Positions 39,177-42,963 of a DNA stretch of 64,000 nt are shown piece after piece. A program made the translations under genes and the position numbers. How positions within the stretch are numbered: position 1 is the first letter of the stretch; each line of letters begins with the position of its first letter. The stretch spans positions 23,250,001 through 23,314,000 of the forward strand of contig OX597842.1 in assembly GCA_951406725.2 (NCBI GenBank), read 5' to 3'. Below the pieces are notes generated by a model. The model was not told the DNA's origin, made no database searches, and saw only the letters and a program-made list of their open reading frames with translations. This DNA is from Octopus vulgaris (Eukaryota).

Positions 39177-39254
39177 GCGGCTGAAGAAGGCCATAGACAC
39201 ACATTATGCATTGTTATAAATCCGTCTAATAAAGGCCCGAAATATATGTACCGC
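39177..39254 (+). ncRNA. Minimal type I hammerhead ribozyme-like motif (same family)
   Basis: gcgg-CTGAAGA-aggcc...ggccc-GAAA-tatatg-TA-ccgc. Confidence 0.55.
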
Positions 39255-39349
39255 TGAATCCTTCGCATCATGTTTTTATTTTGATTAATTTACTCCACCA
39301 AACGGTATATACAGGTGCTTAGAATTATCAAGTACTCACCCTGAATTTC

Positions 39350-39450
39350 TATATGTATATATATATATGTATATATATATATGTATATGTAAATATATAT
39401 ATATATATGTAAATATGTATATATATATATATATATGTATATATATACAC
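39350..39450. repeat. (TA)n-rich microsatellite
   Basis: About 100 bp of imperfect TA repeats. Confidence 0.9.
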
Positions 39451-41059
39451 ACAGGTGCTGGAGTGGGTGTGTGGTAAGAAGTTTGCTTCCCAACCACATG
39501 GTTCCAGGTTCAGTCCCACTGCGTGACACCTTGGACAAGTGTCTTTTACTATAGCCACGAGCTGACCAAAGCTGTGTGAGTGGATTTGTTAGACGGAAAC
39601 TGAAAGTAGTCCATCGTTTATATATATAGATATGTAAATATATAGGATGTCGAATATCTTTAGAAATTTCACCACCAGTGGCCTAGCATGTATAAAAGTC
39701 AATAGACAACAATGCTAGAAGAAGCAGTTAAAATGACCAAAACCACATTGCTCTTAAATGTGGTCTTGGTCGTTTTGACTGCTTCTTCTAGCGTGTAAAA
39801 CTTACCTGTTAAAGATAGTTTTCTCTTGTGTTTAAATGTACACTATTTTATATATATATATATATATATATATAATACACACACACATATATCACCATGA
39901 CCGACCAAGCTATAAGATGTTGCTACACATCGCTGGTCACAATGTGCTTCACATTGTTTTAGCCTTCAAATGATGCCACCCCACTGGCTAAGCGAGCAGG
40001 CCAACAGCAGAAAGTTGTGGTGAAAGGGAGCTTTTAGGTGTTTTCGCTCAATAAACACACACAATGCCCGGTCTGGGAAACGAAACTGCGATCCTATGAG
40101 CACAAGTCCACTGCCCTAACCACTGGGCCATTGCGCATCCACACACACACACACATATATAAATATATTCATCTCTCTCGCTCTTTATTTTCCCAGGATG
40201 GAAAATATTACTACAGGATGATAATGACAATGATGATGATGGTGATTAAAAAACAAGATGGACAAAGTCAACAGTTTAACCTTTTATTCATTATTTCCAT
40301 TTTTTTATTCTCTCAAAACAAATTCTTCAAAAATCCAGCACGATCATCTTCAGAAATCAAAAGCATTGTTGTGTTCATATATTTCAGGTATATTGTATAT
40401 ACACGACATTCAGGTTGATATCCATGAATTTGATGTTGATACTGCTAAAACTGGTGTTGATAACGTGAAATTTGAAGAGGAAAAATCTCTGTCCTTTAGC
40501 AGACAAAACAATCACAATTGTTTTCATGTAATAAATTTTGATATTGAACATCAAAATAAAAAATCAAATGGAAATAGTAGTTAAGACACTCGTGCTGGTG
40601 ACACGTGAAAAGCACCGCCCGAATGCGGCAGATACTAGCGTCGCCTGACTGGCGTCTCTCATAACAAATTCCTCAAAAATTCAGCACAATCCTCTTCATT
40701 TATATATGCCAGTAGTGCCTGACGGTGGCATGTAAAAGCACCCTCTACACTCTCGGAGTGGTTGGCGTTAGGAAGTGTATCCAGCTGTAGAAACTCGGCC
40801 AGATCAAGATTGGAGTCTCGTGCAGCCTTCTGGTTCACCAGACCTCAGTCAAATCGTCCCACTCATACTAGCATGGAAAGCAGACGTTAAACGATGATGA
40901 TGATGATATGATGTTGAAGTTGTTATTCATAAATTTCATATTGACATTGATGAAATTGAAGTTGATAACATGAAGCTTGAAGAGGAATAAACCCTGTTTT
41001 TCATCTGACATAATATTCATAATTTTTGTCCAGTTGTAATAAATTTTGACACTGACATA

Positions 41060-41978
41060 TCAAATTTGTGTATGAATACTCACGTGTGTATTTAAGAGGC
41101 ATTTTTGAGTGAATGATTTACCACAGATATCACACTGATATGGCTTCTCTCCTGTATGAATACGTTGGTGTTTCTTTAGATCATTATTATAAGAAAAGGA
41201 TTTACCACAAATATCACAATATGGTATCCCTGTATGAATACTTTGGTGTGTACTTAATGTACCACTTCTGGTGAATGATTTACCACAGATATTACAATGA
41301 TATGGCTTCTCTCCTGTATGAATGCGTTTGTGTACAGTCAAGGCACAACTTTGAGTGAATGATTTACCACAGATATCACAATAATATGGCTTCTCCCCTG
41401 TATGAATACGCTTGTGACTAGTTAAAGTGCTATTTACAGAAAATGATTTACCACAGATATCACACTGATATGGTTTTTCTCTAGTATGAATACGTTTGTG
41501 AACAGTCAAGTAATTATTTCTAGAGAATGATTCACCACAGATCTTACAATGAAATGGCTTCTCTCCTGTATGTGTACGTTTGTGTAAAGCCAAGTTACCA
41601 CAATCTGAAAATGATTTACCACAGATATCACAATGATATGGCTTCTCACCTGTATGAATATGTCTGTGCGTAGTCAAATGACTATTTACAGAGAATGATG
41701 TACCACAGATATCACAATGATATGGCTTCTCTCCTGTATGAATACGCTTGTGAATAGTTAAAGTGGTATTTCGAGAAAATGATTTACCACAGATATTTCA
41801 AATGACTATTTACAGAGAATGATGTACCACAGATATCACAATGATATGGCTTCTTTCCTGTATGAATACGCTTGTGAATAGTTAAAGTGGTATTTCGAGA
41901 AAATGATTTACCACAGATATTACAACGATATGGTTTCTCTCTTGTATCAGAGTTTTTTGGTTTAGTTAAATTATTCAT
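41060..41978 (-). pseudogene. Frameshifted C2H2 ZNF gene, about 9 fingers (gene F)
   Basis: ORFs 41784..41978 and 41060..41677 are split by a 124-bp tandem duplication (41674-41797 / 41798-41921). Acceptor AG at 42396-42395. Confidence 0.78.
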
Positions 41979-42870
41979 TACAATAATTTGTCATACATGT
42001 CACAATGATATCGTGTTTTTCATTTCTATGAAAGTTTGTGTCCAGTTTTATCACTATTTTCAGAGAATATGTTTTTTTCATTAGTGATTTTACTAAAATA
42101 GATGTATATTGTGAACTCTTTTGTAAAGTTAACGAAGCAAATTTAATCTGTAAATTGATTATCTCCTCTACATTCCAGATAATGAAGACAACAAAAATAT
42201 TGTTGTTAATTACATAGTCCAGAAGAAATATTTTCCCATCGTTTGTTGAAGATTTTGTTCATACAAAGAAGTTGATGCGTTGATGAATGTGCCTTATGAA
42301 TATATGGTCTTCCTTTAATTGATGAAAGCCAATAGAAATATCAGAGGCACATCTGAATGAAGAAGTTTCTTTTACGTCAACAGGATGTGATATTCTGAAA
42401 TAGAAAAAGAAGCATTGAGATAAAGAGGGAAGTCAAACAACAGTGTAATTCAACATTGCAAATATTTCAACATCAACACTGAAGCCGCCAGAATTTTGGA
42501 AAAGTTCTTTTATTTATTCATTATTATTGGTGATTTTGTTCATTCTTTGGACTAGTCAAAATTTTGCGAAAGTGCAAACAGGTTGTTCATTTATATAAAA
42601 CAAATGTTTTTTTTTGTTTAGAAGAGGACATCATTGTTTTTGGTTTTTTAGGGGGGTGAGGTTCCAGAACAATGAAGATCCAATTCCTTCCCTTATATGA
42701 AGTAATCTACCCAGTATTCATTCTTTATCAAGTGAAGAAAAGGTATGGACGATTTGTTTTGGAGTCTAATAATACCATGTATGCCTATGAGGATTTACTT
42801 TCCCAATGAAACTCAGTTTTTTCTCAAACCTGTTATAATGTGATACATGTCTTTGGTGTGGTAATTGTAC

Positions 42871-42963
42871 GCGGCTGAAGAAGGCTTTTGATCTATATGT
42901 TATATCAATTATGCATTGATATAAGAATAAGTTGTTCAATAAAGCCCGAAACATATGTACCGC
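42871..42963 (+). ncRNA. Minimal type I hammerhead ribozyme-like motif
   Basis: gcgg-CTGAAGA-aggcttt...aaagccc-GAAA-catatg-TA-ccgc: stem I, conserved core, stem II, palindromic stem III and a GUA site. Confidence 0.6.

What the first reader, a model, noticed from the sequence alone, without database searches (positions are those of the whole stretch)
39177..42963. Two intact-looking minimal hammerhead ribozyme motifs flanking ZNF gene F
Seen in the sequence: 39177-39254 and 42871-42963 both read stem I (gcgg/ccgc), CUGAAGA, stem II, GAAA, a near-palindromic or palindromic hexamer (tatatg/catatg) and GUA. Their stem-II inserts have diverged while the core and stems are kept. Established: Penelope-like retroelements and retrozymes carry minimal type I hammerheads whose palindromic stem III forms by dimerisation. 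Inference: both are on the + strand, one downstream of gene E and one antisense within the F intron, so they could cleave read-through from E before it makes long antisense RNA to F. The 10.1-11.1 pair is A-C, which may weaken activity.
Basis: partly seen in the sequence, partly recalled or inferred. Interest (0 to 1): 0.72.

Follow-up and report, generated by a model that had tools for sequence, protein, structure and literature searches.

The report
Hammerheads in truncated Penelope retrotransposon ends
The two hammerhead-ribozyme motifs are real, but they are the ribozyme-bearing ends of two broken copies of a jumping-gene family with over 2,000 copies in this genome, likely inserted beside the zinc-finger gene separately and by chance, predicted to cut only in pairs, and ordinary for their kind.

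Summary
Both motifs are present as described; a descriptor finds only these two in the window and none in 20 shuffles. They are 3' ends of 5'-truncated Penelope-like retrotransposons. Their 16-base core occurs 2,033 times. Full-length relatives carry the motif in both terminal repeats, 4.7 kb apart, around an RT-GIY-YIG frame; a sister locus has it intact (836 aa) with Hydra-clade signatures. The A-C mismatch is the family state, and published Hydra-clade hammerheads have such a mismatch too. The two copies belong to different subfamilies (72% alike) and ages; copy 1 has a private stem III substitution. Of 30 zinc-finger exons in 244 kb, only gene F has this family nearby. Copy starts are not enriched at the cut site. 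An antisense guard is not supported; the one hint for it is post hoc: copy 2 differs from its paralog at 3 of 312 sites, flanks at 48 of 1,227. Cleavage and transcription are untested. The scan noted Hydra-clade ends before, on other DNA.

The parts
39020..39352 (+). Copy 1: 5'-truncated 3' end (pLTR plus tail) of a young Hydra-clade Penelope-like element, between (TA)n tracts; ends approximate
   Evidence: 84-85% to both terminal repeats of full-length element L083; 98-99% to the best genomic copies over 191 nt; alignment
39177..39254 (+). Hammerhead motif 1; predicted cut after 39250; private C-to-T at 39243 (position 15.2)
   Evidence: 29 of 29 compared copies have C at 39243; helix III duplex -5.2 against -9.0 kcal/mol for the family sequence
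39228..39233 (+). AATAAA inside the stem II arm, 17 nt before the predicted cut; possible poly(A) signal (inferred)
42675..42992 (+). Copy 2: 5'-truncated 3' end of an older sister subfamily, antisense in the likely intron upstream of gene F's zinc-finger exon
   Evidence: 88-95% to family copies; boundaries; 70-71% to the L083 terminal repeats, and longer copies of this subfamily align at 60-63% over 580-770 nt of the L083 3' UTR
42871..42963 (+). Hammerhead motif 2; predicted cut after 42959
42938..42943 (+). AATAAA inside the stem II arm, 16 nt before the predicted cut
38700..39010 (.). Head-to-head inverted pair of 3' ends of a second, likely Penelope-like family, each arm with a variant hammerhead motif (core CCGAAGA at 38912+ and 38857-, GUU triplet); abuts the (TA)n in front of copy 1
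   Evidence: 3,388 matches to a 20-base pattern; a GIY-YIG fragment upstream of one copy, 32% identity, E 7e-15
35502..37226 (+).
41063..42396 (-). Gene F zinc-finger exon (acceptor near 42396, inferred); reading frame shifts near 41800 in this assembly

Best explanation
The two motifs are the terminal-repeat hammerheads of two 5'-truncated copies of related Hydra-clade Penelope-like retrotransposons, which likely inserted independently next to and inside zinc-finger gene F and are likely passengers with no host role. Shown: both are members of a >2,000-copy family; the same motif lies in both direct repeats of full-length elements, about 200 nt from the cut site to the ORF start. Inferred: the element's GIY-YIG nicks TA-rich DNA; reverse transcription starts in the tail 40-110 nt beyond the ribozyme on an RNA not cut at that ribozyme, and often stops early, which leaves such ends. 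Predicted: the ribozyme cuts weakly, only as a dimer through its palindromic helix III and perhaps only with the element's protein, serving the element's own RNA processing. Isolated copies like these two would be mostly silent.
For: Copy number and spread: (1,010 + 1,023 matches, control 0). Full-length architecture: L083 has the motif at 2692 and 7376 with the ORF start at 2958; L075 is alike; L074 holds an intact 836-aa frame with the motif downstream. Protein: model pLDDT 85.5, best folds telomerase RT; RW, DKT, YRDD, CxCX5C, CxxC, CxH present and no CCHH between VIY and YIG, the Hydra signatures of PMC8557442 section 11. Insertion style: inverted head-to-head pairs, (TA)n flanks, two 3'-end clusters. 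A sister family (60% aa in the RT part) has a different hammerhead at about the same distance upstream of its ORF, with different but pairing stems. The 1x1 mismatch at the base of stem II is in the published Hydra table. In the anole element, uncut RNA was the main substrate and cleavage needed the protein (PMC11167929).
Against: No cleavage assay or strand-specific RNA. I found no ORF directly attached to a copy-2-subfamily element; the link is by DNA homology. Pfam did not recognise the ORF. No tree was built against reference clades. Covariation inside the family is not above its shuffle control (1 of 18 pairs with a two-sided change; 327 of 500 shuffles reach it). Copy 2 is more alike to its paralog than the flanks are (3 of 312 against 48 of 1,227, Fisher p 0.007, post hoc), which strict neutrality does not predict.
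Confidence: 0.9

Rival explanations
1. One or both copies were co-opted to cut or end + strand read-through from gene E, limiting antisense RNA to gene F.
For: Both are on the + strand. A copy1+copy2 heterodimer fold is the cofold minimum. The copy 2 insert differs from its paralog at 3 of 312 sites against 48 of 1,227 in flanks. Each copy also holds an AATAAA.
Against: The paralog has no copy 1. Only 1 of 30 zinc-finger exons in 244 kb has this family nearby. Copy 1 has a private helix III change and deletions. The low-divergence tract (42643-43044) extends beyond the insert, and another 200-nt tract is equally conserved (2 of 200 at 43750-43949), which fits gene conversion or chance. F is frameshifted in this assembly. 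About 3 such same-strand pairs within 4 kb are expected genome-wide from the density alone (my arithmetic, uniform model). The two motifs are 3.7 kb apart, so cis dimerisation would be inefficient (inference).
Confidence: 0.05
2. The two copies are the flanking repeats of one Penelope-mobilised unit that carried the gene F exon, as reported for a rotifer host gene between two direct pLTRs.
For: Same strand, 3.7 kb apart, around a host exon; precedent in PMC3846280 (passage).
Against: Repeats of one insertion should be near-identical; these are 72% alike. The duplicated F segment runs well past copy 2 and lacks copy 1.
Confidence: 0.01
3. They are non-autonomous retrozyme units that make small circular RNAs.
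For: Retrozymes carry similar type I hammerheads and derive from pLTRs (preprint 10.64898/2026.07.22.740005, part 1 of 5).
Against: No short tandem units here; homology runs upstream into the long 3' UTR and ORF of coding elements with scattered 5' ends.
Confidence: 0.03

Closest known systems
Hydra clade of C-terminal-endonuclease Penelope-like elements and their hammerheads, including Hydra-1_Obim (Craig et al. 2021, PMC8557442; read: passages, sections 3 and 11, supplement part 2 of 59 and search hits)
   Same: RW, DKT, CxCX5C, CxxC and CxH motifs, no CCHH, (TA)n targets, a type I hammerhead near the 3' end, and often an extra base on both sides of the stem II base (U.U or U.C in File S2).
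   Different: Unit of about 4.7 kb with a roughly 1.9-kb 3' UTR and true tandem pLTRs (Hydra-1_Obim is 2,507 bp, 'no pLTR'); 51-66 nt between the core boxes against loops of 3-10 nt in the Hydra rows of the table; A.C or A.A at the stem II base; RWA for RWK in the family's own ORF.
Minimal hammerheads of metazoan Penelope-like elements (Cervera and de la Pena 2014, PMC4209133; read: main text parts 1-2 of 4, supplement parts 1-2 of 3)
   Same: Consensus CUGANGAH-G...C-GAAAN-palindrome-NUH, short helix I, U-rich flanks, mostly single truncated copies, opposite-strand pairs 100-700 bp apart, predicted dimer activity.
   Different: An extra base before G12 (1 of 56 listed motifs shows one), and a long stem II insert with an inner hairpin.
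Poseidon element PAc hammerhead (Frangieh et al. 2024, PMC11167929; read: parts 1-2 of 4)
   Same: Hammerhead in the pLTR, two 3'-end clusters defining a tail, intact ribozyme in inserted copies.
   Different: Different clade; here the ORF starts about 200 nt after the cut site and the tail is about 70 nt; nothing here was assayed.
Metazoan non-LTR retrozymes (preprint 10.64898/2026.07.22.740005, part 1 of 5; PMC7229834, search listing only)
   Same: Type I hammerhead with palindromic helix III.
   Different: Not tandem, not non-coding: attached to coding elements.

Membership tests
Minimal type I hammerhead of Penelope-like elements | Core boxes CUGANGA and GAAA, NUH triplet, helix I of 4-5 bp | tested here: met
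Minimal type I hammerhead of Penelope-like elements | Palindromic short helix III allowing a dimer | tested here: met
   cofold minimum is the dimeric fold; copy 1 weakened by one substitution
Minimal type I hammerhead of Penelope-like elements | Extra base after A9, then a G-C pair opening helix II | tested here: met
   extra A, then G-C in 12 of 12 aligned copies; a second extra base (C or A) lies before G12
Minimal type I hammerhead of Penelope-like elements | Covariation of stems | tested here: inconclusive
   within the family stems are mostly invariant and not above the shuffle control; a sister family has different, pairing stems at the same position
Minimal type I hammerhead of Penelope-like elements | Self-cleavage as a dimer | not testable with these tools
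   no assay; copy 5' ends show no peak at the cut site
EN+ Penelope-like element | Single ORF with telomerase-like RT and C-terminal GIY-YIG | tested here: met
   836 aa, YRDD, VIY...YIG; best folds TERT; homologs annotated PF01541
EN+ Penelope-like element | Partial tandem pLTRs, inverted 5'-truncated copies, optional tail | tested here: met
Hydra clade | RWK motif, DKT, CxCX5C linker, CxxC and CxH, no CCHH | tested here: met
   RWA in L074 and RWK in sister L087; RW in 101, DK[TS] in 100, CxCX4-7C in 98 of 101 aligned proteins
Hydra clade | (TA)n insertion preference | tested here: met
   3' junctions printed; not counted against a background
Hydra clade | Placement in an RT phylogeny with reference Hydra elements | not tested
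   no tree built; similarity to the printed Hydra-1_Obim protein judged by eye only
Non-LTR retrozyme | Short tandem non-coding units, each with a hammerhead | tested here: not met

The most novel reading that the evidence does not exclude
In this family the poly(A) signal is built into the ribozyme. AAUAAA lies in the 3' arm of stem II, 16-17 nt before the cut (11 of 12 aligned copies; 25-27 nt in sister families), so the cleavage-polyadenylation site and the self-cleavage site coincide. Folding of the dimeric hammerhead would hide the signal and the misfolded monomer would expose it, making the terminal repeat a switch between polyadenylation and self-cleavage. Each sense-oriented copy, such as these two for + strand read-through, would then act as a portable terminator.
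Probability: 0.1. Interest if true: 0.55.

Novelty: new member of a known kind. Interest (0 to 1): 0.17.

Why it matters
Little as a locus: it is 2 of more than 2,000 copies, of a kind already described from an octopus. Its use is as material. The family has intact young ORFs and subfamilies that differ at the base of stem II (A.C, A.A, rare G-C), so it offers a natural series for the open question of what Penelope hammerheads do and whether they need to cut. The long stem II insert is a likely reason why Rfam models missed them.

Tried and rejected
Rfam scan: no hammerhead among 27 matches. A core pattern with a gap of at most 35 nt missed both motifs, and its 10 matches were at chance level. 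Pfam and PDB sequence searches did not name the ORF; I first read it as Neptune-like from recall and dropped that. Alternative register (bulged A, then G paired with the last C): rejected because a subfamily with 252 exact matches has A at that last position. In vivo cleavage footprint: among copies with a mismatch just before a given position, true 5' junctions were 9 of 25 at the cut (the script called 12; I dropped 2 that are another repeat and 1 that starts at -12), 14 of 30 fetched (46 matches) at +4, 9 of 27 at -2 and 3 of 18 at -8. There is no peak at the cut, but patterns differ in length, so the comparison is rough. Of 30 fetched loci (38 matches) holding the 5' UTR, none begins at the cut; the nearest begin at -5 and +6. 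3' ends exactly at the cut were not searched. Sequencing runs: no RNA holder listed; 4 guessed-RNA and 3 unlabelled contig runs were dominated by repeat copies and give no strand, ends or empty-site evidence. Lunse et al. 2017 on dimeric PLE hammerheads was not held, so measured rates for similar variants were not seen. Searches for a poly(A) signal within PLE hammerheads listed no paper holding AATAAA together with both Penelope and pLTR; only 20 of 25 were listed, figures are not searchable, and the Culex motif in PMC4209133 Fig. S3 also reads AAUAAAGGCC before GAAA. Unread supplement parts of PMC8557442 and preprint supplements may bear on novelty.

Full report
Observation. Each reads GCGG, CUGAAGA, a 51- or 66-nt stem II region, GAAA, a hexamer, UA and CCGC. 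A descriptor written after seeing them finds these 2 sites in the window and 0 in each of 20 shuffles. Rfam lists no hammerhead among 27 matches. Cofolding gives the dimeric hammerhead as the minimum for both homodimers and the heterodimer. As monomers neither beats shuffles, and copy 1 misfolds.

What they are. The genome is 2.8 Gb, likely an octopus by its zinc-finger cluster and repeats (inference). Copy 1 has 2,184 first-look candidates, the best 98-99% identical; copy 2 has 1,439, most of the 40 scored at 88-95%. The shared 16-base core has 2,033 exact matches and the reversed control 0. Long copies extend upstream through a T-rich 3' UTR into an RT-endonuclease frame. Of 12 fetched loci with close ORF matches, L083 and L075 show the motif in direct repeats on both sides of the ORF (4,684 nt apart in L083), several others have an inverted copy at the 5' end, and L074 holds an intact 836-aa frame. 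Window 39005-39353 matches both L083 repeats at 84-85%; copy 2 matches at 70-71%, and longer copies of its subfamily align at 60-63% over 580-770 nt of the 3' UTR. No ORF was found directly attached to the copy-2 subfamily.

Clade. Pfam did not name the protein. A model from 101 aligned proteins (pLDDT 85.5) matched telomerase RT best. The protein has RW, DKT, YRDD, CxCX5C, VIY...YIG without CCHH, CxxC and CxH. These are the Hydra-clade signatures in PMC8557442 section 11, whose supplement lists an octopus member. No tree was built.

The A-C pair. The A is the family state: 2,033 copies against 9 with another base. A subfamily with 252 exact matches has A in place of the C, and a few copies have G-C. 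So the first position of stem II is a 1x1 mismatch followed by an invariant G-C (12 of 12). PMC4209133 describes the extra base after A9 as typical, and the Hydra table shows extra bases on both sides in most rows. The feature is therefore ordinary for the clade. Within-family covariation is not above its control. A sister family with 60% identity in the RT part carries a different hammerhead at about the same distance upstream of its ORF, with different but pairing stems, which is the better structural evidence.

How it likely works. In 30 loci chosen to include 40 nt past the cut, 3' ends cluster near +40 (15) and +110 (9), with 6 elsewhere, mostly into (TA)n. This fits reverse transcription starting at two sites in a tail, as shown for the anole element (PMC11167929). 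Copies that hold both the ribozyme and the tail were copied from RNA not cut at that site, or rejoined (inference). 5' ends show no peak at the cut: 9 of 25 there, 14 of 30 fetched at +4, 9 of 27 at -2, 3 of 18 at -8, and none of 30 5'-UTR loci starts there. That agrees with weak, dimer- or protein-dependent cleavage but does not show it.

The host-regulation idea. The copies are of different subfamilies (72%) and ages. Copy 2 is shared with a paralog of F about 4 Mb away, whose flanks differ by about 4%; that paralog has no copy 1 in the 20 kb fetched. Seven other paralogous introns in the window lack the insert, and only F among 30 zinc-finger exons in 244 kb has this family nearby. Copy 1 has a private change at position 15.2 (C in 29 of 29 others) that weakens helix III from -9.0 to -5.2 kcal/mol. 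F is frameshifted near 41800 in this assembly. Copy 1 sits in a (TA)n tract that also holds an inverted pair from a second, likely Penelope-like family with 3,388 pattern matches, so shared targeting can explain the clustering. Public runs gave no strand information.

Novelty. This is a new family of a known clade. It differs from the published Hydra set in its long stem II insert, long 3' UTR and tandem pLTRs. An AATAAA lies in the stem II arm 16-17 nt before the cut in 11 of 12 aligned copies and at 25-27 nt in sister families, but 8 of the 9 other motif clusters in the fetched loci lack it and the ninth has it at 40 nt, the loops are AT-rich, and a Culex motif in print has the same arrangement. 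Its role as a poly(A) signal is a guess. Earlier notes of this scan reached the Hydra-clade reading on other DNA; I saw them.

Verdict. Real motifs, ordinary origin, host function unlikely. Interest 0.17.

Noticed in passing
window 38700-39010: Inverted pair of a second hammerhead-bearing family; 42 of the first 100 listed matches have the core variant CCGAAGA in place of CUGAAGA, apparently fixed in a young subfamily. Its ACUC-A-GAGU-U stem III equals that of published Penelope-3_HM.
   Followed up: partly
L068:5566-8082: A third Penelope-like family (839-aa frame, Pfam RVT_1 and weak GIY-YIG) in a 3-kb inverted repeat, also with a CCGAAGA core and a U.U mismatch at the base of stem II.
   Followed up: partly
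L085-L092: Sister Hydra-type family with open frames of 940-1,090 codons, Asn-rich inserts and its own long-loop hammerheads in both terminal repeats.
   Followed up: partly
window 41063-42396: Gene F has a local duplication with a frameshift near 41800; its paralog at G000:C29 near 19.34 Mb reads through that place but has a stop further down.
   Followed up: partly
window 42643-43044 against L244: A 400-nt tract with only 3 differences between F and its paralog, against about 4% around it; gene conversion, constraint or chance.
   Followed up: partly
L138, around 1500: A fold-back junction that uses the stem I complement as microhomology, suggesting template switching at the ribozyme stem.
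   Followed up: no
window 42905-42925 and equivalents: Inner hairpin of the stem II insert with a conserved UAUGC loop overlapping the palindrome AUGCAU; a possible second dimer contact.
   Followed up: no
window 45305-47236 (-) and 60520-61623 (+): A LINE-type RT open frame upstream of gene F, and a PIF1-like helicase fragment, likely from a Helitron.
   Followed up: no
window 113-314 and 50085-50175: Other inverted-repeat hairpins that give sub-threshold microRNA matches; probably repeat-derived.
   Followed up: no
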